Assembly: GCA_021463465.1 (NCBI GenBank)
Contig: JAJTYH010000003.1
Span: 3,043 to 67,042, forward strand
DNA from: a bacterium
GTDB lineage: Bacteria; Patescibacteriota; Dojkabacteria; SC72
Direction: 5' to 3'
Length of the DNA: 64,000 bases
How positions within the stretch are numbered: position 1 is the first letter of the stretch; every line of letters begins with the position of its first letter. The position numbers and the translations under genes are program-made. The notes under the pieces are model-generated. The model was given only the letters and a program-made list of their open reading frames with translations, ran no database searches and had not been told where the DNA came from. Shown here piece by piece: positions 14,505-45,463 of the stretch.

Positions 14505-14536
<32 letters not shown>

Positions 14537-28728: not shown

Positions 28729-28790
28729 CTGTTAATGCTTGAAAGTTAAGTTAAGAATAAAGTAACAAAAGGGACATGGTTATGCAATCC

Positions 28791-30403: not shown

Positions 30404-30408
30404 GAATA

Positions 30409-31017
30409 CTACTTTTCATCTGATTTCTTAGCCTTAATCTCGATATTAAAGTACTTTTTGAACAATAGCATACCTACACCTGCGCCTAGTAAGATTGAAA
30501 CTCTTTGTGGCCAAGGAGCATACAGATTCCATAAGGATACAGCGCGATAGTACACTCCCATTACAACATTCGCTGGATCAACTACAAAATATAACTTCGA
30601 AGCAGCTGCAATCCCTACAGTAGAGCCTTCTCCATTAACTTTCTTAACAGGAGAAGCTTCAAGGTAAGCGAAATAATCACCAGGGACTACTTTAAGAGGT
30701 ACATCCAAGGTTATTTCAACTACCTGAGATTCGTTGGGTTTAAGGTGGAATTGAGAAGGACTAAAAGAAAACCATTCCGCTGCGGGTTTTTGTTCTGGTT
30801 GCTGCTCATGATAAGTCACAGAAACCGTATAATCACCTTCTTCGTCCCCTGTATTCAAGACGGCAATTTGAGGTAGTTTGTAAATAATTCCAGGTTTTAG
30901 TTTTTCCTCCACAACTATTTTACCCGTTCCGACTCCAACGCCGATAGAGGCAAAAATATTGCCAGAAAACACAAATACCATTAGGAAGACTAGGAGAATC
31001 AGACCGTATTTATTCAT
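30409..31017 (-). CDS. Cell-surface protein with signal peptide and C-terminal TM anchor
   Basis: 202 aa with an N-terminal signal, a beta-rich domain and a C-terminal hydrophobic anchor followed by a basic tail (KKSDEK). Confidence 0.5.
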   Translation of the reverse strand: MNKYGLILLVFLMVFVFSGNIFASIGVGVGTGKIVVEEKLKPGIIYKLPQIAVLNTGDEEGDYTVSVTYHEQQPEQKPAAEWFSFSPSQFHLKPNESQVVEITLDVPLKVVPGDYFAYLEASPVKKVNGEGSTVGIAAASKLYFVVDPANVVMGVYYRAVSLWNLYAPWPQRVSILLGAGVGMLLFKKYFNIEIKAKKSDEK

Positions 31018-31031
31018 ATACTAACTATTCT

Positions 31032-31544
31032 TTAATCCGCAACAGCCTGTACTATAACATCAACGGATTGCGATGTATAGGAAGAAGAAGATGAAGGAGT
31101 TAATAGCTGTAGATGGAAAGTTTGAGTACCACTTGTAGCAACCGAGTTGGCAAGTGTCTGATAGCTTGTCGTTAGAGCAGTATAGTTGGTGGGTGGTGTA
31201 TTGCAGGTAGCAACACAAAATCTATGCACATATTGATCAGCTCCAATAGAGGATGCAAGCGTCCAAGCAGTACTATTTTGGCCCCTTATGTTGAAATCTT
31301 CAGCGACATTACCGTTATTTGTTGCTGTCTGCATGTCATTGACATCACCAGTAATTGTCGATCTAGAAGTGCTGACTGCCATTATACCGTAAGCAATACT
31401 ACCATCGCTAACCGTTACTGAGATATTTTGAGCAGTTACAGTCGCAGCAACAGTGCCAGTATCAGCAGCGTATGCCATAAATCCTGAAAACATAGTAACT
31501 AGTATTAGATAACCAGCAATAATTTTCTTCGAAAGCTTCATATT
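31032..31544 (-). CDS. Secreted S/T-rich protein (WxL-like motif AWTL); start taken at internal MKLSKK signal peptide
   Basis: The ORF-track start (31655) overlaps the tRNA. The internal Met gives a canonical signal peptide (MKLSKKIIAGYLILVTMFSGFMAYA). Confidence 0.4.
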   Translation of the reverse strand, partial: NMKLSKKIIAGYLILVTMFSGFMAYAADTGTVAATVTAQNISVTVSDGSIAYGIMAVSTSRSTITGDVNDMQTATNNGNVAEDFNIRGQNSTAWTLASSIGADQYVHRFCVATCNTPPTNYTALTTSYQTLANSVATSGTQTFHLQLLTPSSSSSYTSQSVDVIVQAVAD

Positions 31545-31628
31545 CAAAAAATAAAAGTAAATCTGACGCTTAAAATTATCTGAATAACGAGAGTTAGTCA
31601 ACAAGCAAACTTTATAGGGTATTAAGAT

Positions 31629-31703
<75 letters not shown>

Positions 31704-31762: not shown

Positions 31763-32215
31763 CTACATACCGTAAATAAAAAAATCTTTCCACGTTTCGG
31801 AAACGCTCTTTTCCTCAGGAATCTTTGCAACTCCAAGTTTTAGAATACTCTCTAATTCTTTTTTAGCTAGATTTAAGGATTGATCTGATAGAACAAAGAT
31901 AACCTCTCCTCTTTTCGAGTAATTCAGCCGATTACGAATATCAGTTTCTGTATAATCATCCGTCTCGATACGTGTTTTATCCAATATCAGGGATATATTT
32001 TTTAATCTCAGATCAGTAACTTCTTCCCTTGCCCTATTAAGTATAGCCATTTTATCTTTGGCAATTTGAATCGAGCGAAAGCTGTTAAATAATAAGAAAA
32101 TTGAAAACACAATAAATCCAATCAAAATAAGTAAATTAACAAAGTATGAAAACCCAGAAGCGCTTTGCAGTGTAGAAGACTGATTTTTCTGTTTCTTAAA
32201 AAGTATTTCCTGCAT
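31763..32215 (-). CDS. Small bitopic membrane protein with coiled coil (FtsB/DivIC-like?)
   Basis: 150 aa with a single TM near the N-terminus, followed by heptad-like periodicity. Confidence 0.4.
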   Translation of the reverse strand: MQEILFKKQKNQSSTLQSASGFSYFVNLLILIGFIVFSIFLLFNSFRSIQIAKDKMAILNRAREEVTDLRLKNISLILDKTRIETDDYTETDIRNRLNYSKRGEVIFVLSDQSLNLAKKELESILKLGVAKIPEEKSVSETWKDFFIYGM

Positions 32216-33134: not shown

Positions 33135-34025
33135 ATGAGCGCAATAAGAAATCCAGAATTCGCAAAATATCACACTATTTTCGTAGAAGACCTGAAAAAG
33201 AAAAGCAGATCTAACTCAACGGTGATTGCTTACGCAAAAGACATCGAACAGCTTCTAGCGTTTTTCTCTCAAAAGGGTCTACTCGACCTTTCCAAAACAA
33301 CAATAGAAGACCTTGAATCGTACAAGCTCAATCTCCAAGAGAATAACTACACACCAAAAAGCATTTCTCGTAAGATCAATTCGACAAGAACTTTTTACAG
33401 ATACCTTGTTGAGAGAAACCATATCTTAGAAAATCCTTCTGAGAAGCTTGCACACCCAAAATTCGAAATTAAACCTCCACGCGTCCTTTCCGAACTTGAG
33501 TATCGTGCTCTAAGAGACGTCTCACGTATTGACACAAGGCTCTACACTATAATCGAGATATTGCTACAAACTGGAATAAGAATCGGTGAACTAGCGACCT
33601 TAGGCATTGATGACGTTCGTGTATCAAACGATAACAAAATCCCCTACCTTTATGTTAAAGCCCAAGGTAGTCACCCAGCTCGAAAGGTACCATTAAACCA
33701 ATCAGCTTACAAAGCTATTCAGGAGTACCAAAAAATCAGACCAGAGAGCGAAGATGAAACTCTCTTTATTACTAAAAATGGTAAGCCGCTTCTAGTTCGT
33801 AATATAAGAACTACTATTGACAAGGCTTTTGAAAAATCCGGTATTAAGAATGCTAAGGTGAACGACTTAAGGAATACCTTTATCGCCCACCATTTAGCCA
33901 ACGGAATGAGTTTAGTAACTGTTTCCAAACTCGTAGGTCACAAACGACTCTCAACAACCGAAAAGTACCTTAATCTTGTTAATAATAAGCAAGAAGACCA
34001 GGAAAAAGGTTTGAAAGAGCTCTGA
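33135..34025 (+). CDS. Tyrosine site-specific recombinase (XerC/XerD-like integrase)
   Basis: 296 aa with an N-terminal core-binding domain and a C-terminal catalytic domain carrying the R..HxxR..Y signature (DLRNTFIAHHLANG...HKRLSTTEKY). Confidence 0.8.
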   Translation: MSAIRNPEFAKYHTIFVEDLKKKSRSNSTVIAYAKDIEQLLAFFSQKGLLDLSKTTIEDLESYKLNLQENNYTPKSISRKINSTRTFYRYLVERNHILENPSEKLAHPKFEIKPPRVLSELEYRALRDVSRIDTRLYTIIEILLQTGIRIGELATLGIDDVRVSNDNKIPYLYVKAQGSHPARKVPLNQSAYKAIQEYQKIRPESEDETLFITKNGKPLLVRNIRTTIDKAFEKSGIKNAKVNDLRNTFIAHHLANGMSLVTVSKLVGHKRLSTTEKYLNLVNNKQEDQEKGLKEL

Positions 34026-35143: not shown

Positions 35144-35217
35144 TGGGGGAGGACGGAATCGAACCGTCGACATCGGCTTTATAAGAACCGCGCTCTAACC
35201 TTCTGAGCTACACCCCC
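35144..35217 (-). tRNA. tRNA-Ile (anticodon TAT), no encoded CCA
   Basis: Cloverleaf with D-arm gctc/gagc, anticodon stem cggtt/agccg, loop ctTATaa and T-arm gacgg/ccgtc. The acceptor stem is gggggtg/ctccccc with one U-U mismatch. Confidence 0.65.
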
Positions 35218-35256: not shown

Positions 35257-37800
35257 CTATTTAAGCGTTAACGCTGGAGTCCCGCCAGGATTGGTCTGCG
35301 AACCAGGAGCCACGCTCAATTCCGCTCTCTGAGCAATCTCCTCCTCAACTAACTTCACATCCCTACCATACTTTAACCTCGAGAGGTTTTTCACCATCTC
35401 AGCAACCTCTTTATTCACTTTAATATCGAAACCAGAGTCTGGAAAATTAGGACCGTAGGTCGGATCTAATGAGAAAGGCGCTGGGTACTTACCTCCAGAG
35501 ATCATTTTAGCGTAATAATGCATGTTAGGCTGATTCATAAGGTCATTTGCTGTAAACGTAGGCTCAAACTGTGATTCCAAGTACTTAGCATCATCAGGGC
35601 CAGCACGAGCAATTAAGAGCGTACCAACATTACCAAAGACTGCATTCTTGATATCATCGGTTAGCTGTCCTATATACTGGTTGGCAACCGTAAGGTTTAG
35701 TCGATATTTACGGGCTTCAGAAAGAATTGATGCGAACTCATTTGTTGCAAAATTCTGAAACTCATCTACATATAGATAGAAGTCCCGCCTTTGAGATTCA
35801 TCACGGATATCTTCACGACTTAAGGCTGCTGAAACAATTTTAGGGATAATCAAAAGCCCAAGGAACTGAGCATTTTCCTCGCCAATTAATCCTTTCGCAA
35901 GATTTATAATCAGAATCTTACCTTCATCCATCACCTGACGGACATTAAATGAAGACTTTGACTGAGCTACAATATTACGCACAGCCAAGTTAGTGACGAA
36001 TCGGTCAAATTTGGAAGTAATGTAACCTAAGGTTTCTGACTTATGGAAATCACTCGTCTTAGCAATCTGATCGGTCCAGTATCGCTTCACCAAATCATCC
36101 TTAATCAAAGGTACCCACTTCTCCTGTACCCATTTGTCGTCAGTGATAATACGAAGTACCTCAAGAAGGGTTGAACCCTCCTCAGACATAGCTGTCAGCA
36201 TTGAGTTTCTTACTGCGCGCTCCAAAATTGGACCTACAATTCCTTGGTTATGGGGGTCAAAGAGCTTTTTCAACAAATCAATGAAACCGTTAACAATTCT
36301 GTGCTTATCCTGTTCGTTCTGAAACTGCATTAAATTAAAACCCATTGGACGATCGTAGTCAGCTGCATTGAAGTAAATAACATCTTCGGCCCTTTCATGT
36401 GGAATCCTATCTAAAAGCATTTCTGCGGTAGAACCGTGAGGATCAATAAAACAAAGTCCTTCACCATTATAAATATCCTGTATCATCATACGCACCTGCA
36501 GCCACGATTTACCTGAACCAGTCTGACCTAATACATACGCATGTCTTCGACGATCATCCCGCTCAAAGCAGATAGGTTTGGTAATACCCCTATACTTATT
36601 ATTCCCTAGCCAGATTGAGTTTTTAGATTTAATATCAGAGCTTATCCATGTTGCGGCAGGAGCATCTTTGGCCAATAACCAGTTTACGTTGGGCACAGTG
36701 ACATCCTTATTAGGAAAGTGATACATAGAAGCTAACTCTTCGACATTAAAGACTGAACCACCTCGAAGAGGCATTCTTCGATAAAGGACGTCATGCATGA
36801 ACTCACGCTCCTTAAATTTGTTCAACTTATCCTTCTTCAACTCATTGATTCCTGGATTCTTAAACTGATCAAAAGCCGACACAACGTTATTCAAATGCAT
36901 ATTTGCAATATCAGCATTGTTGGCAGTAGCGACAACTCGAACGGCAGCTCTAAAACCCGTCTTAGCAGTCTTCTTGCTTATCGCTTGAATTTGCTCCTGA
37001 CTTACGCTAATCCGACTCTTCTCAGGATCTGAATTATTCTCTTCAACTTTCTGTACAAATTTTCTTCCGTTCTTCTGCCACTTACTCGCAGTTGGAGAAA
37101 TTACAATCTGGATCATTATCCCCTCACCTTTTCCTATTTTGCTAAGTGTAGAAAGAATGTTGGCTAAAGGGTCTCCTTTAAAATCCTCTGCCACTTTCAA
37201 AGGGTAATACTCTTCATCGGTTTGGATTAGACTAGCGTATGCTACCTTCCCACTCTCTTCAAATATATTGTATTCCTCTGATATAGAAACTTCAGCATCC
37301 TGATAAGATCCGAGTATCTGTTGCTCTACTAAATTCGCCAACTTTTTAGGGGCATACACATAGAAACGGATTTCCCCCGGCAACCCTACAATTTCAAAAC
37401 TAACGCTATTACCTACCGTAATGAACTGCTCAATCCCCTTTCCTCCTCCACCTATACCATACAAGTTAGAAAACATCTTCTCTGCGACACCGATTTCAGT
37501 CTCATTACCTCTTGGCACCCTCACCTCAAACAGTACTCCAGATTTAGTCTTTTCGTCACGGTCTTTTTTCTTAAGAAGGTTCATGTAGTAATAGATTAGG
37601 CCACCAATGGCACCTGCAAAAAGTAGTATGAAAATAAACAGTGTGACAATACCTCCCCATTGAAAAGCAGTACCAGGTTGAGGCACATTGTAACTATCCT
37701 GTGGGTAGTTAATAACCTCACCTGGCACAACTCCATCGCCCGGTTGAACCGGCCCTATAACCTGTGAATACACTTGTGAATGTGATGGCAGCTTAAGCAT
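35257..37800 (-). CDS. Type IV secretion-type ATPase (VirB4 / VirD4-TraG-TraD superfamily) with N-terminal TM
   Basis: 847 aa with a TM at ~50-75. It has Walker A HAYVLGQTGSGKS, an IDPHG motif, Walker B YLYVDEFQNF, and the C-terminal motif ANQYIGQL. Confidence 0.65.
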   Translation of the reverse strand: MLKLPSHSQVYSQVIGPVQPGDGVVPGEVINYPQDSYNVPQPGTAFQWGGIVTLFIFILLFAGAIGGLIYYYMNLLKKKDRDEKTKSGVLFEVRVPRGNETEIGVAEKMFSNLYGIGGGGKGIEQFITVGNSVSFEIVGLPGEIRFYVYAPKKLANLVEQQILGSYQDAEVSISEEYNIFEESGKVAYASLIQTDEEYYPLKVAEDFKGDPLANILSTLSKIGKGEGIMIQIVISPTASKWQKNGRKFVQKVEENNSDPEKSRISVSQEQIQAISKKTAKTGFRAAVRVVATANNADIANMHLNNVVSAFDQFKNPGINELKKDKLNKFKEREFMHDVLYRRMPLRGGSVFNVEELASMYHFPNKDVTVPNVNWLLAKDAPAATWISSDIKSKNSIWLGNNKYRGITKPICFERDDRRRHAYVLGQTGSGKSWLQVRMMIQDIYNGEGLCFIDPHGSTAEMLLDRIPHERAEDVIYFNAADYDRPMGFNLMQFQNEQDKHRIVNGFIDLLKKLFDPHNQGIVGPILERAVRNSMLTAMSEEGSTLLEVLRIITDDKWVQEKWVPLIKDDLVKRYWTDQIAKTSDFHKSETLGYITSKFDRFVTNLAVRNIVAQSKSSFNVRQVMDEGKILIINLAKGLIGEENAQFLGLLIIPKIVSAALSREDIRDESQRRDFYLYVDEFQNFATNEFASILSEARKYRLNLTVANQYIGQLTDDIKNAVFGNVGTLLIARAGPDDAKYLESQFEPTFTANDLMNQPNMHYYAKMISGGKYPAPFSLDPTYGPNFPDSGFDIKVNKEVAEMVKNLSRLKYGRDVKLVEEEIAQRAELSVAPGSQTNPGGTPALTLK

Positions 37801-37843
37801 ATCTATCTGGGAAAATATAACACACCAAAGCGATAATAGCTAT

Positions 37844-38395
37844 TTATTCAAACAGACTAAAGATCTTTGCAATCAGAGTTGCAGCCCAAGTTTTGGCGTC
37901 TGAAACAGGAGCATCATTTGAGATACTTTTGGCATTAGTATAGGTAGTAGTTGTGGGCTGATATCCGAAGAAATTGTAGGTTTTAACATTCGCCGTCTTG
38001 GCCTGCTCTGCTTCAACTCTTGCGACTTCTTCAGCTGGCATTACGGGTTTAGCAAAATTTTCACTATTTTTTTTCTCTTCTTTGAGCACGTTTAATGCGA
38101 TTTCAAACTCTTCGTTCTTCTCTACTTTTTGTTCTTGCTGCACAATTACCTCAGGTTTAGTCGACGTTACTGGAGCAACCTCTACTGAAGGAGTAGCTTC
38201 TTCAACCCTAACCTCTTTAACGTATTTCTCATATATTCCGTGTTGCCTTAGCATTTCCTGCTTCTGATCAACAGTGAGAGTTGACCATACAGTTGCAGGT
38301 ACGATATTAACCAACTCGGCAGGAGTCTCTCTTAACCATTCCGCTTGGGGAGGTCCTTTTACCTCGTTGTTATTCTGTAAATCGGTGGGCTGCAT
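37844..38395 (-). CDS. Hypothetical E/K-rich protein
   Basis: 183 aa low-complexity ORF. There is no tmRNA signature despite its position next to smpB. Confidence 0.5.
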   Translation of the reverse strand: MQPTDLQNNNEVKGPPQAEWLRETPAELVNIVPATVWSTLTVDQKQEMLRQHGIYEKYVKEVRVEEATPSVEVAPVTSTKPEVIVQQEQKVEKNEEFEIALNVLKEEKKNSENFAKPVMPAEEVARVEAEQAKTANVKTYNFFGYQPTTTTYTNAKSISNDAPVSDAKTWAATLIAKIFSLFE

Positions 38396-38406
38396 ATTGC
38401 CACAAA

Positions 38407-38847
38407 TTATATCATACTCTCTCGCTTCTCCCTGTGGAATTCACGATTCAAATCACGTTCTTTCTCCTTCAGCTTCTTTTCATAACCTTTTCGACCCCTA
38501 CCTAAACCTATCAAAACTTTTACTTTTCCTCTATTAAAATACATTTTCATAGGAATAATAGTTAAACCACCTTGCTTGCTTTTCGATTGTAAGTTGAGTA
38601 ATTGACCTTTTCTTACTAATAATTTCCTTGACCGGGCTGGATCGTATGTCTCATCACTACTAAATTTGTATCTAGCAATATCCGCATTAACTAACCAGAG
38701 CTCACCTCCAATAACTTTCACATATGCATTCCCCAAGTTGACTCGATTATCTCGAATCGACTTCACTTCTGCACCAGTAAGTACAACACCCGCCTCGATG
38801 CCGTCTTTAACCTCATAGTTACGTAACCCTTTCTTATTTGCGACCAT
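38407..38847 (-). CDS. smpB: SsrA-binding protein SmpB
   Basis: 146 aa aligning with SmpB throughout (GIEAGVVLTGAEVKS..., RSRKLLV..., and a basic C-terminal tail). Confidence 0.85.
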   Translation of the reverse strand: MVANKKGLRNYEVKDGIEAGVVLTGAEVKSIRDNRVNLGNAYVKVIGGELWLVNADIARYKFSSDETYDPARSRKLLVRKGQLLNLQSKSKQGGLTIIPMKMYFNRGKVKVLIGLGRGRKGYEKKLKEKERDLNREFHREKRESMI

Positions 38848-38863
38848 GGCCAGAGTATATCAC

Positions 38864-41215
38864 CTACTTCAGTTTTAGCTTCAAAATTCTATTGCCATCA
38901 AGAATATAGAGGTTCTCCTCATTATAGTCAGCGGCAATCTCTCGAACATCCTTCAACATATCGTCTCTTGCTCCTCTGTACACGTACTGAGCTAACAACC
39001 GCATCTGATTCGGATGCAATACCTCTCCACCTGCTTCAATCGGCTTCTCAAAAACTAACACCCTTTCATTAGTCTTATCGAACACATACATTCGTGCACC
39101 TTCTCGGGTAACGGTATAGGCAGCTGACAATTCTCCTAAGCCTTCGACATCCTCAACTGTTACAGCATTCAAAACAGTTTTATTTCGAGTATAATCAAAA
39201 GAGTATCGCTCAATTCCCCTATCACCTGAGGTCATCACATAAAGGCTGATATCGTTGGCTAGATTATGCGCAGAATCAAATGACTTACCACTTACATATT
39301 CAAAAGGATAACTGTAACCAGCACCAGTTCGCCCTGACTTCATCACAGCCTTTTCAGAAGGACTGAGAAGATATACGTTATCGATATTGGTAATAATCGC
39401 CATATCCACTACAGTCATTCCCCCTATAACATCACGATCCAGACCTGAGAGTACTCCAAACCTTCCGATACTTCCGTCTTTTCCAAAAGGAGCCCTTACC
39501 ATCCCAGCCTGCTCATCAAATACATAAACCCCACCTTCTCCGTAATCTACATATTTAGGTTGTTTCAAAATATTTTTACTATCATCCAAAGGTACTGCCT
39601 TATTATCAGCCAAACTCATTTTGTAGACCTCAGGTCCACCTGCATTTGAAATGAAAAGAAACTCATTCTGAAATTCATCCTTGTAGCTAGTGATATCAGT
39701 AAGGTTTACAGCATCTCCAAACTGAGTTCTACCGTCCAAAACAAATTCCAAAGTGCCATCTTCCTCCGACACACCTACCTTTTTCGCAATCTTATCCATG
39801 ATTGCCTGCAAACGAGTTTTAAGAGAATTCATTCGAACTTGATCATCTAACGATAGAGTCTTGCCTTCAAGAGGTATGAGCAAGCCGTCATTATTGAAAA
39901 GTATCAGCTCTGCATCATCAGAACTTGTAAGGTAAGTTTTTTCAGCTTCATTAAGAACCTCTTCCATACTCTCAAAAATCCCCACAGCCTGTTTATGCAA
40001 ATCTCTACTCTGCTTTGCGGCAATACTTAACCTTGCACCACCATAGATCAAGAAGATTACTAAAAGCGCCAGAAAGAAAATCCCGAACCGCTTATTCCTT
40101 AATCCGACTTCTTTGTACCCATCAATCTTAAGACCTTGTGCCATTTGCTTTTTCCCGAAACTCAAAAGTGATAACCTAGCCATTAAACTTTTAAACCAGT
40201 TCTGCCTACCGTACTTTTCACGAATCAAGCCGTTTACCCTTGCGACTACCCCACCACCTGCAACACCTAATCTATTTACGATATTGGTAGTGACTTCACC
40301 AATCTTAATGACTCCAGGCCTCACCTTTCCTAAAGCACTCTTTAAAATAACCTGAGCCCTTGAGAGGTGTTTCCCAAAGTTAAAATTCAGCTTTTTATCT
40401 GAGATCACTGATTCTTCAACAATTTCGTCGACGAGCTCTTCACGGGTAGGTAGTTCATCTTTAGAAGTCATTGCCGCTGAAGTTTCAACTTCAACCTTCT
40501 CTTCGCCGAGCTTTACCTCTACTCGTTCTTTACGCACCAAAGGTTCAATAGGTGGTCTTTTAATCACCTTAAACTCTTTGCCAGAAAGTAGAAGCAAGGA
40601 CTCACAGCCCCTGAGATAAGCCGAAAGTTTATCAATACCTTTAGCTATATCATCGGCCGAATCTCCAAGTTTCTTATCGGAGGTAATCTGATCAATAAGT
40701 CCTGGTGAACTCATTATAAGCAAATCAGAATCAGACCATGCCATGCTTAAAACCACACCTTTATTCTGATTGACAATCTGGTCCACCTTCACAAATCCAC
40801 CGTTTTTATAAAGCAAAAGTTGCTGTTCACCAAAAACGGTTAAATAAGCACCCTTACCTTTAAACACTGCCAACGCAAAACTTAGATTGACACCCTTAGA
40901 GTCAAGCTCAGGCTGATTCTTAATCAAATCAGAAGCTTTACGTGCACCCACAGCAACAGAGTGTTTAAGACTATCAATAACTGTAGTAAATGGAGAGTAA
41001 AAATAGCTATCAACAATTGCGTCCCACACGAACTTCGCTACACGGTCAGCTTGTATCCCCTCTGACCCAATAACTGTGATTAAACCATGTAATTCCCCTT
41101 TAGCTTCAAGTTCTTTAGGATTACTGGGGGCAAAGCGATTAGTAGAAGTCAGTGCAAAGTTCTGCACATCATTTGCGATGTATCTTAAAGTGTACAGAGG
41201 CATAGCTTTAACCAA
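38864..41215 (-). CDS. Large bitopic membrane protein (cytoplasmic N-domain, one TM near residue 370, ~400 aa ectodomain)
   Basis: 783 aa with the TM FGIFFLALLVIFLIYGGARLSI. The N-terminal domain has weak PP2C-like features. The C-terminal domain is beta-rich. Confidence 0.55.
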   Translation of the reverse strand: MVKAMPLYTLRYIANDVQNFALTSTNRFAPSNPKELEAKGELHGLITVIGSEGIQADRVAKFVWDAIVDSYFYSPFTTVIDSLKHSVAVGARKASDLIKNQPELDSKGVNLSFALAVFKGKGAYLTVFGEQQLLLYKNGGFVKVDQIVNQNKGVVLSMAWSDSDLLIMSSPGLIDQITSDKKLGDSADDIAKGIDKLSAYLRGCESLLLLSGKEFKVIKRPPIEPLVRKERVEVKLGEEKVEVETSAAMTSKDELPTREELVDEIVEESVISDKKLNFNFGKHLSRAQVILKSALGKVRPGVIKIGEVTTNIVNRLGVAGGGVVARVNGLIREKYGRQNWFKSLMARLSLLSFGKKQMAQGLKIDGYKEVGLRNKRFGIFFLALLVIFLIYGGARLSIAAKQSRDLHKQAVGIFESMEEVLNEAEKTYLTSSDDAELILFNNDGLLIPLEGKTLSLDDQVRMNSLKTRLQAIMDKIAKKVGVSEEDGTLEFVLDGRTQFGDAVNLTDITSYKDEFQNEFLFISNAGGPEVYKMSLADNKAVPLDDSKNILKQPKYVDYGEGGVYVFDEQAGMVRAPFGKDGSIGRFGVLSGLDRDVIGGMTVVDMAIITNIDNVYLLSPSEKAVMKSGRTGAGYSYPFEYVSGKSFDSAHNLANDISLYVMTSGDRGIERYSFDYTRNKTVLNAVTVEDVEGLGELSAAYTVTREGARMYVFDKTNERVLVFEKPIEAGGEVLHPNQMRLLAQYVYRGARDDMLKDVREIAADYNEENLYILDGNRILKLKLK

Positions 41216-41459
41216 GAAGAATTAATATTACTGCGAGAGCACTTCCCACAATCCCAACCAGAAGTAGAGCATATGAGAACAGTTTCGAAGTGTTGTTATT
41301 GGGGGTTTTAACAGTATCAGCTAAAATTCTTACCCTTAAAATTAACAGGAAAACATAGATTAGATAACCTATGACAAGAACTAAAAACAGTAGCTTCAAA
41401 ATATCAGCTACTCCGGAAGATCCAAGTTCGATTGTGCCAATTCCCTCTAAGAAGTCCAT
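41208..41459 (-). CDS. Small two-TM membrane protein
   Basis: 83 aa with two hydrophobic helices. It is translationally coupled to its neighbours. Confidence 0.45.
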   Translation of the reverse strand: MDFLEGIGTIELGSSGVADILKLLFLVLVIGYLIYVFLLILRVRILADTVKTPNNNTSKLFSYALLLVGIVGSALAVILILLG

Positions 41460-42082
41460 TAGATTTTACCCTCCTGCTTCAATTCAAGTAGATCTAAAAG
41501 CGTATCTTGAACGTCGCGAGGTCTGGGTACATTATCAAACACAAACTCCCGCTGAGCTCCAGCAGTTTGAATATATACATTTCCATAATCAAAAATCGAA
41601 CTGAAAATACCAACAGGTTTGTGAGTCACATCCTCAATCTTTTCTAGCTGAGCTTCTGCAAATTTATGATAAAGAACATTATTAAAATCGACATCTACAA
41701 TCCTCTGATCAGTAATGATATTAACGGTGTAGTACCACTTAAAGTATATGTCCACCGCCAAAGTTACTGCTAATAACACGAATAAAAGAGAAGATCCTGC
41801 TGACAATCCAAAGTTGCTTCCTTCCAGAAGCGAATCAATTACTCTAGTAAAGACTATTGGAGTAATAAGAAGCAAAAGGAAAAGTAGGAAATGAGGGAAA
41901 AACACAATCGGGTGCTTTCTTACGAGTAGAATTACACTCTCTTCATGATCTTGTCCGTTGAAACTTACATCGGTAGGGAAAGCACAAAACGAGCTTGTAT
42001 TACTGCCATTTTCTCCATTACTAAGTCGATCGATGAAACTTTTTTTCAGTTTGGCGAATTTTTTAGGCACCACCACCTTCAT
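41459..42082 (-). CDS. Membrane protein with bacterial PH (bPH_2/YdbT-like, DUF304-type) domain
   Basis: 207 aa with two TMs followed by an ITDQRIV...FDYGNVYIQTAG pattern typical of the bacterial PH domain. Confidence 0.5.
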   Translation of the reverse strand: MKVVVPKKFAKLKKSFIDRLSNGENGSNTSSFCAFPTDVSFNGQDHEESVILLVRKHPIVFFPHFLLFLLLLITPIVFTRVIDSLLEGSNFGLSAGSSLLFVLLAVTLAVDIYFKWYYTVNIITDQRIVDVDFNNVLYHKFAEAQLEKIEDVTHKPVGIFSSIFDYGNVYIQTAGAQREFVFDNVPRPRDVQDTLLDLLELKQEGKI

Positions 42083-42123
42083 ATAAATATGAAGATAGCA
42101 TAAACACGGGAAAAACTAAACCT

Positions 42124-43920
42124 TTACTTCTTCAAAACGTCTATGAATACATAGTTGTTTTGAGGTATGGAGAGATACCCAGGGGCTCTCATGTTAAAGA
42201 CCTGTTTGAAATCTGCACCGCTTAACTCGACCGCACCTCTATTAGTAACAAAACTCACTTTTGTAGTAGCTCCAGCACCATTTTGGGTAACCACAGGATT
42301 ACCATTAATAGATGTCACTGGGCTACTAAGCAAAGACTTCATCTCGTCCATTGAATACGGGTTACCCGAGAGACCGCTTATTTTGCACTGCGGAAGGGTC
42401 ACAGGAATTATACGGCTTGTATTTACATAACCTGTTACCCCACTACCTTTAAGTACTAAATAAGTGTTTAAAAGATCGGCCATCTCAGCCTGTGAAAGCC
42501 ATGGATTAGGCTGCGCAGAACAGGCTGCAGAACTGTCTGAATATGTTTGACGATACCATGCTCGATAAAACCAAGGGCTATTCGCTTTGCTCTCCCAAGC
42601 ATTAGTAGTCCAACCATTCCCTCCACCTTGTCCATCAGTAGTATCCCATCCGCTGGTCGTGAGGTAACCACCAGAGGTGGCGGAATAGTAAGTAACAACT
42701 CCACTGATTATTTTTCCATTAGTCTCATCCACTGCCTGCTTCCACCTAGAAGGAGGATTGGCCGACTTAGAAGGGTTCCATACCTGGCAACTCTGAGTTA
42801 TGCAGATTGTAGTGCCGTTGTAATAATAGTTGTAAGCATAAGTTCGAGCGGCAACCGCCTGAGCCTTTAAAGCTTCAAGGTCCCAACTGGACGGCATTTC
42901 AGCAATGCCATATAGATAATCAGTCTCAAAATCCATAGAGCCATATCCTTGCACTTTGATATCACCTGAAGTACCTCTAGTTACTGGACTTTTACTGTAG
43001 TACGCCTTCAATATTGTTTTGTAATCCTGGTTTCCAACAACGGCCCTAGCTTGTGCACCGTACTGACTCATACCTAAACGGTGTGTGTAAGCACCGAAAG
43101 AAAAGACAGCAAAGCTGCCTGTTGGAGCACTCTGTTGAAACCCAGCTAGAGTGGCTGCGGAATCGCCAGAAGTTGGCACAGTTCCTACACTCGTTGTGGC
43201 ACCACTTTTAGCGACAAGGATTGCTACCTGTAAATCTGAAATCTCATCTTTGAGTAAGGTAATCTGTTTTTTCAAACTAACACTCTGCGAATTTTTGGCA
43301 TAAATCTGATTCTCGTAGCTGTTCTTCTGAGCTATCAAATCCAATTTGAGCTTCTCTGTATCCTCTCTCTGGCCATCTAAAGCTTTCTTGTCTTCTGCAA
43401 GTGAAAGCTTTTCACTATTTATTTGCGCAAACTCCTCTCGCTTGCTTCTGAAATTAGCAATATGCTGAGAAAGTAGATACTGTTTATAAAAAAGATTCTG
43501 CGCAAAACCTGCAGAGGAACTGTTCAAAAAGAAGTAATCGAGGATACCTACGCGTGTTACTTTATATAGATCATAAGAGACTTGCCCCAATTGTTCTTTC
43601 TGCTTTTCCAGTAGTTGTTCTTGAGATTTAAGCTGTGCACTTTTGTTCCTAAGCAACTTCAAAGTGTCATTAAGGTAACCTTCCACTTTGAGAATCTCTT
43701 TCTCAATTAGTACGATCTTCTCATCCACACTGGCAGAACTCGCATTGATAGCTTCAATCTCTTTTTTGATTTTTTCCAGATCCTTTTGCTTACTTTCTAC
43801 CTGCCCACTCTTATTATCTAACTCATCCTCCAAGTCACCTAATGACTGGGAGTATACTGGAGAGAAAATCACAGAAAAAAGAAGAGTCAACAAAAGGATT
43901 ATGTTTAGGGCATTCTTCAT
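42124..43920 (-). CDS. Secreted coiled-coil protein with SpoIID/LytB-type peptidoglycan hydrolase domain
   Basis: 598 aa with a signal peptide and ~230 aa of coiled coil. The motif YTHRLGMSQYGAQARA resembles the SpoIID motif GHGVGMSQWGA. Confidence 0.6.
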   Translation of the reverse strand: MKNALNIILLLTLLFSVIFSPVYSQSLGDLEDELDNKSGQVESKQKDLEKIKKEIEAINASSASVDEKIVLIEKEILKVEGYLNDTLKLLRNKSAQLKSQEQLLEKQKEQLGQVSYDLYKVTRVGILDYFFLNSSSAGFAQNLFYKQYLLSQHIANFRSKREEFAQINSEKLSLAEDKKALDGQREDTEKLKLDLIAQKNSYENQIYAKNSQSVSLKKQITLLKDEISDLQVAILVAKSGATTSVGTVPTSGDSAATLAGFQQSAPTGSFAVFSFGAYTHRLGMSQYGAQARAVVGNQDYKTILKAYYSKSPVTRGTSGDIKVQGYGSMDFETDYLYGIAEMPSSWDLEALKAQAVAARTYAYNYYYNGTTICITQSCQVWNPSKSANPPSRWKQAVDETNGKIISGVVTYYSATSGGYLTTSGWDTTDGQGGGNGWTTNAWESKANSPWFYRAWYRQTYSDSSAACSAQPNPWLSQAEMADLLNTYLVLKGSGVTGYVNTSRIIPVTLPQCKISGLSGNPYSMDEMKSLLSSPVTSINGNPVVTQNGAGATTKVSFVTNRGAVELSGADFKQVFNMRAPGYLSIPQNNYVFIDVLKK

Positions 43921-43945
43921 AACCTTAATATTATACCTGAAATAT

Positions 43946-44266
43946 TTATCCGCCTAAAAAGTCGAATACGAGTTTGAGAACCCAGCTAAATATGAAAAGG
44001 AATATCAAGCCACCAATAGCCCAAGTCAGAGTACCACGTGCTTGATTAGTCTTAGCTGAATCTCCAGCAGAAATTAGCCAAATGTAACCACCGTACACTA
44101 CCATACCTGTCGCTACCAAACCTCCAATAGGTAGAATCATGTCAAAGAAAGCATCCAGAGAACCTCCAAGTTCTTCAAAGCGTGGAGGTGCAGATTGAGC
44201 ATGAACCAAACCCACAGTAAATAAGAAAACTATAATTGTAGTCAGCGCGTTTAGAACTTTCTTCAT
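43946..44266 (-). CDS. T4SS pilin-like small membrane protein (paralog 1)
   Basis: 106 aa with a signal peptide and two hydrophobic helices. The shared motif is VYGGYIWLISAGDSAKTNQARGTLTWAIGGLIF. Confidence 0.6.
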   Translation of the reverse strand: MKKVLNALTTIIVFLFTVGLVHAQSAPPRFEELGGSLDAFFDMILPIGGLVATGMVVYGGYIWLISAGDSAKTNQARGTLTWAIGGLIFLFIFSWVLKLVFDFLGG

Positions 44267-44290
44267 ATATCTATTCTAACATGTAATACA

Positions 44291-44319
44291 AAAAAAGGCA
44301 GGGTTGCCCCTGCCTTTTC
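44291..44319 (-). terminator. Strong bidirectional intrinsic terminator between pilin paralogs
   Basis: A perfect 8-bp GC stem (aggcaggg-ttgc-ccctgcct) is flanked by A7 upstream and T-run downstream. Confidence 0.65.
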
Positions 44320-44335
44320 CAATTTCAAACCGAGC

Positions 44336-44704
44336 TTATGAAACTTTAAGTAAGTTTGTAAGCACGAAGTTGACTATAAGGACTGAAACGAAACAGATTA
44401 CCAAACCAACAACGGCATAGGTAATACCCTTTGTAGCCTTCTCAACTTTACCCTCATCCCCTGCAGCCATAATATATTGGATACCACTGTAAACCAAGAT
44501 ACCAACAGCTACTAAAGCTGAAAGTGCAATCACTAAGTTTAGCGCACTCTTAATGAAACTTATAAGGTCACCACTTCCTGCACTGGAAATACCACCAACA
44601 AACTGTCCAGCACTCTGTGCAAATACAGCCGATGTAAGGTAAAGAGATGACGAAACAGCAGAAGCTGCTGCTGCAATCTTTGTCAAAGCATTTCTAACTT
44701 TCAT
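44336..44704 (-). CDS. T4SS pilin-like small membrane protein (paralog 2, followed by terminator)
   Basis: 122 aa carrying VYSGIQYIMAAGDEGKVEKATKGITYAVVGLVI. It has the same architecture as its neighbours. Confidence 0.6.
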   Translation of the reverse strand: MKVRNALTKIAAAASAVSSSLYLTSAVFAQSAGQFVGGISSAGSGDLISFIKSALNLVIALSALVAVGILVYSGIQYIMAAGDEGKVEKATKGITYAVVGLVICFVSVLIVNFVLTNLLKVS

Positions 44705-44780
44705 GTTTATGAGTATTAAATTAACACTGCTATATCAAACAAGAGTATTATATTACACATATAACGCTCTTTTCAATACC

Positions 44781-45113
44781 TTACCTCAAAACTTGTTCAA
44801 CTACAAATTTGATAATTGTTCCAGCCAAAAATACAATTAGCATACCGATTGTAGCTGCTTTGATTGTATTCTGACCCTCAACTAAGTGATCAGCTTCTCC
44901 TTGTGCTGAAATTATGATTTTATATCCACCGTAAACATATAGTGCAACTGTGACCAATGCTGAGAAAGCAATCGCTGTATTAATAAGGAAAGTAAGCCTT
45001 TCAACCGTGCCATCCAATGTCGTAAAAGCGTCTCCTCCAAAAGGGTTAGAAATACCGTACCAAGTAGCAAAAAGAATTCCTTTAGTTTTAATGTATTCCC
45101 AAAATTTTTTCAT
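44781..45113 (-). CDS. T4SS pilin-like small membrane protein (paralog 3)
   Basis: 110 aa carrying VYGGYKIIISAQGEADHLVEGQNTIKAATIGMLIV. Confidence 0.55.
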   Translation of the reverse strand: MKKFWEYIKTKGILFATWYGISNPFGGDAFTTLDGTVERLTFLINTAIAFSALVTVALYVYGGYKIIISAQGEADHLVEGQNTIKAATIGMLIVFLAGTIIKFVVEQVLR

Positions 45114-45463
45114 GGCTGAATTCCAGGTATATTAAGTGTGTTTTGAATCAAAAGTAGTATCGCAACCGAAAGAGCAATAAGGGCAAATCCTATGATGGCG
45201 TTAGTAGCCACTTCTCTTGCCTCACCAAGCTTTTCAGGATTTCCCTGACTTGTAATCATAACATATCCTGCATAACTCATTAATGCCATTGCAGCCAAAA
45301 CTCCAAGTGGTACCGATAAACTTACCAACGCATTTACCAACCCAGTAAGGTCCTGTTGTTGAGTCACGTTGTTGATTTGACCAGCAACAATTTCCCCGAG
45401 TGCATCGGCATGAACTTTACCAGTCGGAATCAAGCTAATTATCTTATTTATCAAACTCAACAT
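45110..45463 (-). CDS. T4SS pilin-like small membrane protein (paralog 4)
   Basis: 117 aa carrying SYAGYVMITSQGNPEKLGEAREVATNAIIGFALI. It overlaps paralog 3 by 4 nt. Confidence 0.55.
   Translation of the reverse strand: MLSLINKIISLIPTGKVHADALGEIVAGQINNVTQQQDLTGLVNALVSLSVPLGVLAAMALMSYAGYVMITSQGNPEKLGEAREVATNAIIGFALIALSVAILLLIQNTLNIPGIQP

What the first reader, a model, noticed from the sequence alone, without database searches (positions are those of the whole stretch)
35257..45463. Type IV secretion-like locus with four tandem pilin-like paralogs, a coiled-coil SpoIID-type hydrolase and embedded smpB
A minus-strand array reads, in order:
- four ~110-aa paralogs (signal peptide, two hydrophobic helices, shared motif Y.GY..I.SAGD/QG....A...I.G..I) resembling T4SS pilins of Gram-positive/CPR-type secretion systems;
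- a secreted protein with ~230 aa of coiled coil fused to a SpoIID/LytB peptidoglycan-hydrolase domain, playing a VirB1-like role;
- a bPH-domain membrane protein and a small two-TM protein;
- a 783-aa bitopic membrane protein;
- smpB and an E/K-rich ORF;
- an 847-aa membrane-anchored VirB4/VirD4-type ATPase.

Pilin paralog 2 has its own strong terminator (44291-44319), suggesting it is the major subunit.

No relaxase, VirB6-like polytopic channel or VirD4/VirB11 pair is obvious, so this may be a reduced or non-canonical secretion/pilus apparatus. This is of interest for an organism likely living attached to a host cell.
Basis: partly seen in the sequence, partly recalled or inferred. Interest (0 to 1): 0.6.

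Follow-up and report, generated by a model that had tools for sequence, protein, structure and literature searches.

The report
Dojkabacteria pilin array beside coupling-protein ATPase
This stretch of a Candidatus Dojkabacteria (CPR/Patescibacteria) chromosome carries four VirB2-like pilin genes of the already described Patescibacteria type IV secretion system, but the large ATPase nearby is a coupling-protein (VirD4-type) homologue that sits beside the pilins only in this class, so the region is a conserved gene neighbourhood and not a self-contained secretion machine.

Summary

- **Pilins.** Three of the four small paralogs pass Pfam's threshold for T4SS_pilin (PF18895); the fourth is sub-threshold.
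- **Hydrolase.** The 598-aa protein has a signal peptide, a coiled coil and a SpoIID/LytB domain.
- **ATPase.** The 847-aa ATPase is not VirB4. Its family aligns end to end with the relaxase-adjacent ATPase of a Bacillus conjugative plasmid, and its closest solved relatives are TrwB and DotL. It belongs to the coupling-protein (T4CP) family.
- **783-aa protein.** It is not VirB6-like. The model shows a PP2C-like cytoplasmic domain (apparently degenerate), one membrane helix and a PknD/NHL-like beta-propeller.
- **Missing core.** No VirB4, TrsD, VirB3 or VirB6 is in the 64-kb window.
- **Synteny.** The whole block, including smpB, a helicase, a Xer-type recombinase and DivIC, is collinear in 80 Dojkabacteria species. 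In 83 loci holding this ATPase family that are mostly from other CPR lineages, only two Dojkabacteria-like ones keep part of the block, and none shows a pilin gene.

Patescibacteria T4SS pilin arrays and unlinked T4CP homologues were described in 2023-2025. This is a new member of a known kind, and the "reduced secretion locus" reading is only partly supported.

The parts
45110..45463 (-). Pilin paralog, array position 1 (117 aa). Its stop overlaps the start of the next gene.
   Evidence: PF18895 T4SS_pilin 31.3 bits, cutoff 26.6. Two hydrophobic helices. Positional orthologues are present in 45 Dojkabacteria loci.
44781..45113 (-). Pilin paralog, array position 2 (110 aa).
   Evidence: PF18895 is sub-threshold, 16 bits. 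It aligns with the other three at 21-25% identity and has the same two-helix layout. A profile built from the array recognises its orthologues.
44747..44776 (-). Sigma-70-like promoter match (TTGAAA-18-TATAAT, 11 of 12) in the 76-nt gap before pilin 3.
   Evidence: Consensus scan only. A gap of about 70 nt before position 3 is conserved in 36 five-gene arrays.
44336..44704 (-). Pilin paralog, array position 3 (122 aa); candidate major subunit.
   Evidence: It has the best PF18895 score, 45.8 bits, and NF045849 ICE pilin-like scores 35.4 bits against a cutoff of 40. This array position is the most conserved across species, 49% mean identity. It has its own promoter-like site and hairpin.
44290..44318 (-). 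Intrinsic-terminator-like hairpin plus T-run, 17 nt after the stop codon of pilin 3.
   Evidence: -18.2 kcal/mol. A comparable hairpin plus T-run follows position 3 in 7 of 36 related arrays, against 0-3 of 36 at other positions.
43946..44266 (-). Pilin paralog (106 aa), orthologous to array position 5 of relatives. It has a clear signal peptide ending VHA-QS.
   Evidence: PF18895 39.3 bits and PF04956 TrbC/VirB2 at E 8.6e-4. The ~91-aa position-4 paralog of relatives is missing in the window.
42124..43920 (-). Secreted protein (598 aa) with a coiled coil and a SpoIID/LytB domain.
   Evidence: PF08486 68 bits and TIGR02669 99.1 bits, cutoff 83.3. Coiled-coil composition. It directly follows the pilin array in Dojkabacteria; the median gap is 49 nt, and 21 of 47 loci have an extra ~130-aa ORF in between.
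41459..42082 (-). 207-aa membrane protein with 2 TM helices and a possible bPH domain.
   Evidence: bPH_2 scores 16.5 bits, below the cutoff of 22. TM helices. Found in 66 Dojkabacteria loci, always abutting the next gene, median gap -1 nt.
41208..41459 (-). 83-aa DUF5657 protein with 2 TM helices.
   Evidence: PF18901 41.9 bits, cutoff 25.
38864..41215 (-). 783-aa bitopic protein. The layout is a PP2C-like cytoplasmic domain (about residues 20-215), a disordered linker, a TM helix (about 372-401), a helical stalk and a six-bladed beta-propeller (about 480-783).
   Evidence: AlphaFold2 model at pLDDT 70, with the propeller at 80-95. Foldseek PDB matches the PknD sensor domain 1rwi at E 1e-9 and the PP2C phosphatases 2pk0 and 1txo at about E 6e-8. 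No Pfam hit. The DGxGG and DG metal-binding motifs are replaced (read by eye).
38407..38847 (-). smpB, the housekeeping trans-translation factor.
   Evidence: PF01668 156 bits and NF003843 160 bits. It starts a median 12 nt after the 783-aa gene in 74 of 74 loci.
37844..38395 (-). 183-aa low-complexity ORF rich in E, K, V and A, directly upstream of the ATPase.
   Evidence: No family hit. A co-directional ORF ends within 200 nt upstream of the ATPase in 122 of 135 loci across CPR lineages, but homology between them is not detectable.
35257..37800 (-). 847-aa membrane-anchored ATPase of the T4CP (VirD4/TraD/TcpA-position) family, with an N-terminal DUF8128 domain.
   Evidence: DUF87 scores 28.4 bits, with weaker TraG-D_C and TrwB_AAD_bind hits. 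NCBIfam gives TraD and VirD4-like CD1115. Homologues carry PF26449, PF10412, PF01935 and PF02534. PDB matches are TrwB 1.4e-7 and DotL 6e-6. hhalign to the Bacillus plasmid relaxase-adjacent ATPase gives E 2.7e-49 over 662 columns, but only 9.9% probability to the same plasmid's TcpF/VirB4.
35144..35217 (-). tRNA-Ile(UAU) directly downstream of the ATPase gene; marks the end of the co-directional gene string.
   Evidence: ARAGORN and Rfam.

Best explanation
The region is a class-wide collinear piece of a Candidatus Dojkabacteria chromosome. It holds three separable units, not one machine.

**Unit 1: pilin array plus SpoIID protein.** This is the pilus-subunit module of the Patescibacteria-type (MPF-FATA-related) type IV secretion system, made of four VirB2-like pilin genes followed by the secreted coiled-coil SpoIID/LytB protein. 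The proposed working is inferred, not shown:
- The pilins are exported by Sec, lose their leader and sit in the membrane as two-helix hairpins.
- A VirB4-driven assembly platform (VirB4/TrsD/VirB3/VirB6), encoded elsewhere in the genome, extracts and polymerises them into a surface filament used in contact with the host cell.
- The position-3 paralog (44336-44704) is the likely major subunit. It has its own promoter-like site and a strong hairpin terminator, and it is the most conserved position.
- The other paralogs are ancient, individually conserved minor or alternative subunits.
- The SpoIID-type enzyme may cut peptidoglycan locally for the filament.

**Unit 2: membrane proteins plus smpB.** A tightly packed string encodes a bPH-like membrane protein, DUF5657, a PP2C-like/TM/beta-propeller protein and smpB. 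The three envelope proteins have unknown function, and smpB is housekeeping.

**Unit 3: small acidic ORF plus ATPase.** The ATPase is a DUF8128-type coupling-protein homologue. Its family is near-universal in CPR bacteria, is encoded apart from T4SS genes in other lineages, and lies next to the pilins only because of Dojkabacteria gene order. It may feed substrates to the T4SS in trans or may have been taken over for another membrane-associated task.
For: **Pilins**
- PF18895 is above the gathering score for three of four paralogs. TrbC/VirB2 and ICE-pilin hits are weaker. All have the two-helix layout.
- Arrays of 5-8 such genes occupy the same place in 43 related loci.
- Orthologues at one array position are 40-49% identical across species, while paralogs within an array average 31%. 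The paralogs are therefore old and separately maintained.
- Position 3 is set off by a conserved gap of about 70 nt. It is the position most often followed by a hairpin plus T-run.

**ATPase**
- Profile matches are to TrwB and DotL only, not to VirB4 or FtsK.
- The family aligns end to end with a Bacillus plasmid ATPase that lies next to the relaxase gene. Only the Walker A region matches that plasmid's TcpF/VirB4.

**No functional link by synteny**
- No pilin, SpoIID, bPH or DUF5657 gene lies next to this ATPase family in 3 ABY1-class loci. In 80 metagenome loci, only two Dojkabacteria-like ones keep part of the block. The neighbours are ribonucleotide reductase, CysS and ribosomal proteins.
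- The Dojkabacteria block also contains smpB, a helicase, Xer and DivIC.
- Insertions occur at the SpoIID|bPH and smpB|ATPase junctions.

**Literature**
- Patescibacteria VirB4 forms its own clade and has TrsD, VirB3 and VirB6 beside it. Arrays of 2-11 VirB2 genes average 25% identity. Of 5,713 T4CP homologues, 148 lie near virB4. The two Dojkabacteria genomes I could read in Table S1 are scored VirB4-positive (PMC12102498).
- The pilin array and T4SS are essential in Southlakia epibionticum (PMC10633639).
Against: - No VirB4 was located for this organism. The window (64 kb) and the +/-10 kb flanks of 80 related loci contain none, and I could not read a whole Dojkabacteria genome.
- That PF18895 proteins form a filament has not been shown biochemically for any CPR organism.
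- The promoter and terminator are consensus or energy predictions, and the hairpin is present in only 7 of 36 relatives.
- The AlphaFold model of the ATPase was too poor to use (pLDDT 50.6), so its classification rests on sequence profiles alone.
- The invariable pilin-to-ATPase adjacency across the whole class could still reflect co-function.
Confidence: 0.6

Rival explanations
1. The whole string is one reduced, non-canonical pilus or secretion apparatus. The T4CP-like ATPase powers pilin extraction or substrate transfer. The bPH protein, DUF5657 and the 783-aa bitopic protein form the membrane platform. The SpoIID protein plays the VirB1 role. No VirB4 is required.
For: - The gene order pilins-SpoIID-bPH-DUF5657-783aa-(smpB)-small ORF-ATPase is kept in every Dojkabacteria locus long enough to show it.
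- All the proteins except smpB are membrane-bound or secreted.
- T4CP and VirB4 are related P-loop ATPases.
- No VirB4 lies within 64 kb.
Against: - The same collinear block includes smpB, a helicase, Xer and DivIC.
- Outside Dojkabacteria the ATPase family has housekeeping neighbours and no pilins.
- The two Dojkabacteria genomes I could read in the published table are scored VirB4-positive (PMC12102498 Table S1).
- To my knowledge, no T4CP is known to assemble a pilus.
- The 783-aa protein resembles a signalling or sensor protein, not a channel.
Confidence: 0.15
2. The ATPase is not a secretion component in these bacteria. It is a housekeeping membrane DNA or nucleoprotein translocase, an FtsK-like helper of chromosome handling at division, exapted from a conjugative coupling protein. 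Only the pilins (with or without SpoIID) relate to T4SS.
For: - The family is very large: 20,634 clusters at 50% identity.
- T4CP homologues are present in 2,918 of 3,035 Patescibacteria genomes, more than have VirB4 (PMC12102498).
- A Xer-type recombinase and DivIC lie just downstream in Dojkabacteria and in 18-21 non-Dojkabacteria loci.
- dnaX lies nearby in three ABY1 loci.
- No relaxase or T4SS gene sits next to it.
- The paper itself raises exaptation and reports that the Southlakia homologue is not essential.
Against: - Neighbourhoods differ between lineages, so the Xer/DivIC adjacency may again be collinearity in one clade.
- Profile matches go to TrwB and DotL, not FtsK.
- No FtsK-gamma-like DNA-recognition domain was detected.
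- A non-essential gene in Southlakia argues against a core division role.
Confidence: 0.15
3. The pilin-like paralogs are small two-helix membrane proteins that do not form a filament, for example membrane-embedded subunits or regulators. The SpoIID protein is a general cell-wall growth or division enzyme of the coiled-coil-plus-hydrolase type, like PcsB, CwlO or EnvC.
For: - The pilin profile has no sequence match to any solved pilin.
- PF18895 is named by inference.
- One paralog fails the Pfam threshold.
- The coiled-coil-plus-hydrolase architecture is typical of FtsEX-controlled division hydrolases (my own knowledge, not tested here).
- In 21 of 47 loci another ORF separates the pilins from SpoIID.
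Against: - PF18895 and TrbC/VirB2 hits.
- Structure-based annotation calls the Southlakia array proteins pilins inside an essential T4SS cluster (PMC10633639).
- Tubular structures at a CPR-host interface were reported and suggested to be T4SS pili (bioRxiv 10.64898/2026.06.21.733656).
Confidence: 0.1

Closest known systems
Patescibacteria-type T4SS with VirB2-like pilin arrays (Southlakia epibionticum SEML1_0006-0019; survey of 3,035 genomes in PMC12102498)
   Same: - The pilins belong to the same Pfam family (PF18895).
- They form a tandem array of divergent paralogs. The window's are 21-34% identical, against a published mean of 25%.
- The location is chromosomal, no relaxase is present, and the host is monoderm.
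   Different: - In Southlakia and in many Microgenomatia and Paceibacteria genomes the array lies within a few genes of virB4/trsD. Here no VirB4, TrsD, VirB3 or VirB6 is within the 64-kb window.
- Here the array is followed by a SpoIID-type enzyme, not the peptidase and lysozyme homologues reported downstream of virB4 in Southlakia.
- Arrays far from virB4 are already counted in the published survey, where the pilin gene was near virB4 in 1,135 of 1,948 assemblies.
Monoderm conjugative coupling proteins (T4CP): the relaxase-adjacent DUF87 ATPase of Bacillus subtilis plasmid NZ_OX419568; TrwB of R388; DotL/IcmO
   Same: - The alignment to the Bacillus plasmid protein runs end to end, including the N-terminal domain (hhalign E 2.7e-49).
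- Walker A and B regions align with TrwB.
- An N-terminal membrane anchor is present.
   Different: - The gene is chromosomal, near-universal in CPR and not next to a relaxase or T4SS genes.
- It has one predicted TM helix, whereas VirD4-type T4CPs usually have two (my own knowledge).
- The window protein's Pfam TrwB_AAD_bind and TraG-D_C scores are below threshold.
VirB4/TcpF/TraC assembly ATPases
   Same: P-loop ATPase of the same superfamily and of similar length (about 800-850 aa).
   Different: - Only the Walker A region matches TcpF (9.9% probability).
- There is no AAA_10, CagE or PF19044 hit.
- No adjacent TrsD or VirB3 is present.
SpoIID/LytB lytic transglycosylases and VirB1-type T4SS hydrolases
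   Same: The SpoIID/LytB domain scores above the NCBIfam cutoff. The protein is secreted and encoded next to the pilus-subunit genes, as VirB1-type enzymes often are.
   Different: Known VirB1 analogues use SLT, CHAP, M23 or lysozyme folds, not SpoIID. The 200-residue coiled coil recalls the division hydrolases PcsB, CwlO and EnvC instead.
Bacterial PP2C phosphatases with membrane anchors (PstP) and the PknD NHL beta-propeller sensor domain
   Same: The fold of the N-terminal domain of the 783-aa protein matches PP2C, and the fold of its C-terminal domain matches the PknD sensor (Foldseek). Like PstP, it has a cytoplasmic PP2C-like domain followed by a TM helix and an extracellular part.
   Different: The metal-binding Asp motifs appear to be replaced (VIGSEG for DGxGG, SSPGL for SDGL, GEQQ for GDSR). 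It is therefore probably not an active phosphatase. No sequence-level family match exists.

Membership tests
T4SS pilin, VirB2/TrbC-like (Pfam PF18895 T4SS_pilin) | Score above the Pfam gathering threshold (26.6 bits) | tested here: met
   45.8, 39.3 and 31.3 bits for three paralogs. The fourth (44781-45113) scores only 16 bits.
T4SS pilin, VirB2/TrbC-like (Pfam PF18895 T4SS_pilin) | Small protein of about 100 aa with a cleavable leader followed by two hydrophobic helices joined by a short polar loop | tested here: met
   Hydropathy profiles and alignment. AxA-type leader ends VFA-QS and VHA-QS were read from the sequence.
T4SS pilin, VirB2/TrbC-like (Pfam PF18895 T4SS_pilin) | Polymerises into an extracellular filament | not testable with these tools
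   Needs cryo-EM or proteomics.
Type IV secretion system (as a complete locus) | Presence of the hallmark VirB4 ATPase | tested here: not met
   No VirB4-type domain was found in any large ORF of the window. A TcpF query found nothing in the window or in 165 loci. The rest of the genome could not be read.
Type IV secretion system (as a complete locus) | Membrane channel parts: a VirB3/PrgI-like protein and a polytopic VirB6-like protein | tested here: not met
   The only polytopic ORF in the window is an SdpI/DUF1648 protein at 55834-56538. The 783-aa protein has a single TM helix.
Type IV coupling protein (VirD4/TraD/TraG/TcpA-position) | P-loop NTPase domain with profile similarity to known T4CPs | tested here: met
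   PDB profile search gives TrwB 1.4e-7 and DotL 6e-6. NCBIfam gives TraD and VirD4-like CD1115. Full-length hhalign to a relaxase-adjacent plasmid ATPase gives E 2.7e-49.
Type IV coupling protein (VirD4/TraD/TraG/TcpA-position) | N-terminal membrane anchor | tested here: met
   One predicted TM helix at residues 42-76, conserved across the family.
Type IV coupling protein (VirD4/TraD/TraG/TcpA-position) | Encoded with a relaxase or with T4SS genes, and couples a substrate to the channel | tested here: not met
   No relaxase is in the window. The neighbours in other CPR lineages are housekeeping genes. Function is not testable here.
VirB4 family | VirB4-type domains (AAA_10, CagE_TrbE_VirB or PF19044) over the C-terminal ATPase and N-terminal domain | tested here: not met
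   No such Pfam hits in the window protein or in 240 listed homologues. hhalign to TcpF gives 9.9% probability.
SpoIID/LytB | Domain score above the curated cutoff (TIGR02669, 83.3 bits) | tested here: met
   99.1 bits; Pfam SpoIID 68 bits. Catalytic residues were not examined.
PP2C (PPM) phosphatase (783-aa protein, N-terminal domain) | PP2C fold | tested here: met
   Foldseek matches 2pk0 and 1txo at about E 6e-8, TM-score 0.52-0.54 normalised to the target, on a domain modelled at pLDDT about 70-84.
PP2C (PPM) phosphatase (783-aa protein, N-terminal domain) | Conserved metal-binding aspartates (DGxGG, GDSR and DG motifs) | tested here: inconclusive
   By eye the corresponding stretches read VIGSEG, GEQQ and SSPGL, and they are conserved as such in 10 homologues. 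No structure-based residue alignment was available.
Bacterial PH domain (bPH_2) | Score above the Pfam gathering threshold (22 bits) | tested here: not met
   16.5 bits, E 0.01. The 2-TM plus C-terminal domain layout is compatible.

The most novel reading that the evidence does not exclude
In Dojkabacteria the pilins are assembled or used without a nearby VirB4. The adjacent genes (coiled-coil SpoIID enzyme, bPH protein, DUF5657, the PP2C-like/beta-propeller bitopic protein and the DUF8128 coupling-protein ATPase) would then form a lineage-specific, T4CP-driven pilus or uptake apparatus for taking macromolecules from the host.
Probability: 0.1. Interest if true: 0.7.

Novelty: new member of a known kind. 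Interest (0 to 1): 0.3.

Why it matters
**Context.** CPR/Patescibacteria depend on host cells. Their T4SS, with its unusual pilin arrays, is essential in the one species tested, yet its function is unknown.

**What this locus adds**
- It gives a Dojkabacteria example.
- The pilin paralogs are ancient and individually conserved. This pattern fits specialised subunits better than recent antigenic variation.
- One paralog has its own transcription signals.
- The widespread "T4CP" of CPR belongs to the family of the monoderm plasmid relaxase-adjacent ATPase, and is genomically uncoupled from pilins outside this class.

**Practical value.** These points help to choose targets (the position-3 pilin, the DUF8128 ATPase) for structural and genetic work. 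They do not reveal a new kind of system.

Tried and rejected
- **ATPase structure.** The AlphaFold2 model from a 10-sequence alignment had pLDDT 50.6, too poor for fold search, so I dropped it.
- **783-aa protein.** Searches by sequence found only 9 homologues and no Pfam or PDB match.
- **Pilin profile against PDB.** Only spurious matches to designed proteins.
- **Small ORF upstream of the ATPase.** I tried to show homology between the versions in different lineages. Alignment gave 16-24% identity, and jackhmmer stayed within close relatives. Only the conserved position can be claimed.
- **Mobile-element idea.** I considered that the region is an integrative element, because a tyrosine recombinase and a tRNA sit beside the ATPase. 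I rejected this because the recombinase and DivIC are collinear in 62 and 52 of 80 species and in sister lineages, as expected for a Xer-type housekeeping gene.
- **VirB6 idea.** I considered the 783-aa protein as a VirB6 analogue and rejected it because it has a single TM helix and PP2C/propeller folds.
- **Viral contigs.** A scan with the ATPase profile found 14 loci, mostly with shorter ATPase-domain-only relatives and no pilins. This was not informative.
- **Published table.** The stored copy of Table S3 of PMC12102498 is cut before the Dojkabacteria rows, so I could not read the position of their VirB4.

Full report
**What is there**

The window is a chromosome segment of a Candidatus Dojkabacteria (candidate division WS6, CPR/Patescibacteria) bacterium. 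The best protein matches of the large ATPase are all from that group, and so are the 80 related genomic loci. Other typical CPR features are present:
- The 23S rRNA gene is about 1 kb longer than the model and carries a LAGLIDADG endonuclease ORF.
- Almost all genes lie on the minus strand.

In transcription order they are:
- four small paralogs at 45110-45463, 44781-45113, 44336-44704 and 43946-44266;
- a 598-aa protein, a 207-aa protein, an 83-aa protein and a 783-aa protein;
- smpB and a 183-aa ORF;
- an 847-aa ATPase, followed by tRNA-Ile(UAU).

**The pilins**

- Three of the four paralogs pass Pfam's threshold for T4SS_pilin (PF18895): 45.8, 39.3 and 31.3 bits against a cutoff of 26.6. 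The fourth reaches 16 bits.
- One also hits TrbC/VirB2 weakly. Two hit the mycoplasma ICE pilin-like family below its cutoff.
- The paralogs are 21-34% identical and share a leader followed by two hydrophobic helices.
- In 43 related loci the same position holds 5 to 8 such genes: five in 36 loci. The window lacks the ~91-aa fourth member.
- Orthologues at a given array position are 40-49% identical across species, whereas paralogs within an array average 31%. The paralogs therefore predate the class and are individually maintained.
- The array has a fixed internal layout:
  - genes 1 and 2 abut;
  - a gap of about 70 nt precedes gene 3;
  - genes 4 and 5 abut.
- In the window the gap before gene 3 holds an 11-of-12 sigma-70-like match.
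- A -18.2 kcal/mol hairpin plus T-run follows gene 3. A similar hairpin follows gene 3 in 7 of 36 relatives, against 0-3 of 36 at other positions.

**The ATPase**

The ATPase has one N-terminal TM helix, a domain of about 300 residues (DUF8128 in precomputed annotations of its homologues) and a P-loop domain.

Evidence that it is a coupling protein (T4CP):
- Pfam gives DUF87 above threshold, and TraG-D_C and TrwB_AAD_bind below it.
- NCBIfam's best hits are TraD and the VirD4-like CD1115 family.
- Profile searches of the PDB find the coupling proteins TrwB and DotL, then HerA. They find no VirB4 and no FtsK.
- A tblastn search of plasmids finds near-full-length relatives in Bacillus, haloarchaeal, Streptomyces and Sulfolobus plasmids.
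- In one B. subtilis plasmid the relative lies directly before the replication-relaxation (relaxase) gene. It is upstream of TcpC-, TcpE-, TcpF- and CD3337/EF1877-family (mobilome membrane protein) genes. This is the position expected of a coupling protein.
- The CPR family profile aligns with that protein over 662 columns (E 2.7e-49). It matches the same plasmid's TcpF/VirB4 only at the Walker A motif, with 9.9% probability.

The protein is therefore a coupling-protein homologue, not VirB4. The AlphaFold model was too poor to add anything.

**The other genes**

- **598-aa protein.** A signal peptide is followed by about 200 residues of coiled coil and a SpoIID/LytB domain.
- **83-aa protein.** This is DUF5657.
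- **207-aa protein.** It has two TM helices and only a sub-threshold bPH hit.
- **783-aa protein.** It has no sequence family. Its model (pLDDT 70, C-terminal part 80-95) shows the following, in order:
  - a cytoplasmic PP2C-like domain;
  - a disordered linker;
  - one TM helix;
  - a helical stalk;
  - a six-bladed propeller like the PknD sensor domain.
- The PP2C metal-binding motifs appear to be replaced (by eye). The protein looks like an envelope-spanning sensor or scaffold, not a VirB6-like channel.
- No VirB4, VirB3, VirB6, VirB8, VirB11 or relaxase is present anywhere in the 64 kb.

**Is it one system?**

The full order is collinear in all Dojkabacteria loci long enough to show it: helicase, pilins, SpoIID, bPH, DUF5657, 783-aa protein, smpB, small ORF, ATPase, Xer-type recombinase (opposite strand), DivIC. 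Housekeeping genes are part of this conserved order, and the tightest junctions include 783-aa-to-smpB (median 12 nt, 74 of 74 loci). Conserved order therefore says little about shared function. Insertions occur between SpoIID and bPH and between smpB and the ATPase.

Outside the class the ATPase family is very large: 20,634 clusters at 50% identity. I examined its neighbourhood in two sets of loci:
- three ABY1-class loci;
- 80 metagenome loci.

Only two Dojkabacteria-like loci (L124, L133) keep part of the block, and neither shows a pilin gene. Of those, L124's contig begins inside the SpoIID gene, so its pilin region is out of view. A Pfam scan of 136 upstream neighbours from 17 of the metagenome loci gives ribonucleotide reductase, NrdR, CysS, ribosomal proteins and response regulators. 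What recurs is:
- a small, fast-evolving co-directional ORF just upstream (122 of 135 loci);
- in one group of lineages, the Xer-type recombinase and DivIC downstream.

**Comparison with what is known**

- Tn-seq in Southlakia epibionticum found an essential T4SS cluster with a pilin array and no recognisable coupling protein or relaxase (PMC10633639).
- A survey of 3,035 Patescibacteria genomes reported the following (PMC12102498):
  - a dedicated VirB4 clade related to MPF-FATA, with TrsD, VirB3 and VirB6 beside it;
  - 441 arrays of 2-11 VirB2 genes averaging 25% identity;
  - 5,713 T4CP homologues in 2,918 genomes, only 148 of them near virB4.
- The two Dojkabacteria genomes whose rows I could read in its Table S1 are scored VirB4-positive.
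- A 2025 review lists these systems as the first T4SSs of monoderm bacteria (its "Gram-positive" group) that may make conjugative-type pili (PMC12857230).

The window therefore shows a Dojkabacteria instance of a described system. Its pilin module is encoded away from the VirB4 core and, by class-specific gene order, close to the CPR-wide T4CP homologue.

**Mechanism proposed**

Shown:
- pilin family membership;
- T4CP family membership;
- SpoIID domain;
- gene layout and its conservation.

Inferred:
- The pilins are Sec-exported and processed.
- A VirB4 platform encoded elsewhere polymerises them into a host-contact filament.
- The position-3 gene encodes the major subunit.
- The SpoIID enzyme may open the wall.
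- The ATPase either serves the T4SS in trans or has another membrane-associated role.

I put 0.6 on this reading. I put 0.15 on a housekeeping DNA-handling role for the ATPase. I put 0.1 on the paralogs not forming a filament at all.

**Verdict**

This is a new member of a known kind. Interest is modest at 0.3. The useful points are:
- the ancient, position-specific pilin paralogs;
- the full-length link between the CPR "T4CP" and a relaxase-adjacent ATPase of a monoderm (Bacillus) plasmid;
- the demonstration that its adjacency to pilins is class-specific.

Noticed in passing
window 14125-18057 (23S rRNA, minus strand); ORF 15235-15921: The 23S rRNA gene spans 3,933 nt against a 2,925-nt model. 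It contains a 228-aa LAGLIDADG homing-endonuclease ORF (72 bits), the rRNA insertion typical of CPR bacteria.
   Followed up: partly
window 22492-23952 and 23988-25148 (minus strand): DNA polymerase I is split into two ORFs 35 nt apart: a 5'-3' exonuclease of 386 aa and a polymerase domain of 486 aa. A related Dojkabacteria contig (L085 19733-22420) has one 895-aa gene. This could be a natural split, a pseudogene or an assembly error.
   Followed up: no
window 35144-35217: tRNA-Ile with anticodon UAU lies directly downstream of the ATPase gene. To my knowledge, bacteria usually read AUA with a lysidine-modified CAU tRNA, so this may say something about AUA decoding in this lineage.
   Followed up: no
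window 33135-34025 (+) and 31763-32215 (-); loci L001-L165: A tyrosine recombinase (Xer-like) on the opposite strand and DivIC lie just downstream of the ATPase in 62 and 52 of 80 Dojkabacteria loci, and in about 18-21 non-Dojkabacteria CPR loci. This is a recurrent ATPase-Xer-DivIC neighbourhood.
   Followed up: partly
window 37844-38395; position -1 in loci L001-L165: A small (about 100-190 aa), low-complexity, fast-evolving co-directional ORF ends within 200 nt upstream of the ATPase in 122 of 135 loci across CPR lineages. Homology between lineages is not detectable.
   Followed up: partly
window 35257-37800: The ATPase matches phrog_5156, an 824-position phage protein family of unknown function, at E 2e-88. 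Fourteen IMG/VR contigs encode relatives, mostly shorter ATPase-domain-only versions. Relatives of this ATPase are therefore filed among viral sequences.
   Followed up: partly
window 56906-63439 (minus strand): A 2,177-aa ORF carries many fibronectin type III and CarboxypepD_reg-like domains and has hydrophobic segments near its C-terminus. It is probably a giant surface or adhesin protein.
   Followed up: no
window 27817-31655 (minus strand): Five consecutive ORFs of 198-344 aa each have a hydrophobic segment in the first 65 residues, N-terminal in four of them. One has a cohesin domain (37.6 bits). This is a cluster of secreted or surface proteins between EF-P and DivIC.
   Followed up: no
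loci L003, L020, L031, L034, L035, L039 and others, between the last pilin gene and SpoIID: In 21 of 47 Dojkabacteria loci the gap between the last pilin gene and the SpoIID gene exceeds 300 nt. In the loci checked it holds an extra ORF of about 130 aa. The window has no such ORF, and the ORF was not characterised.
   Followed up: no
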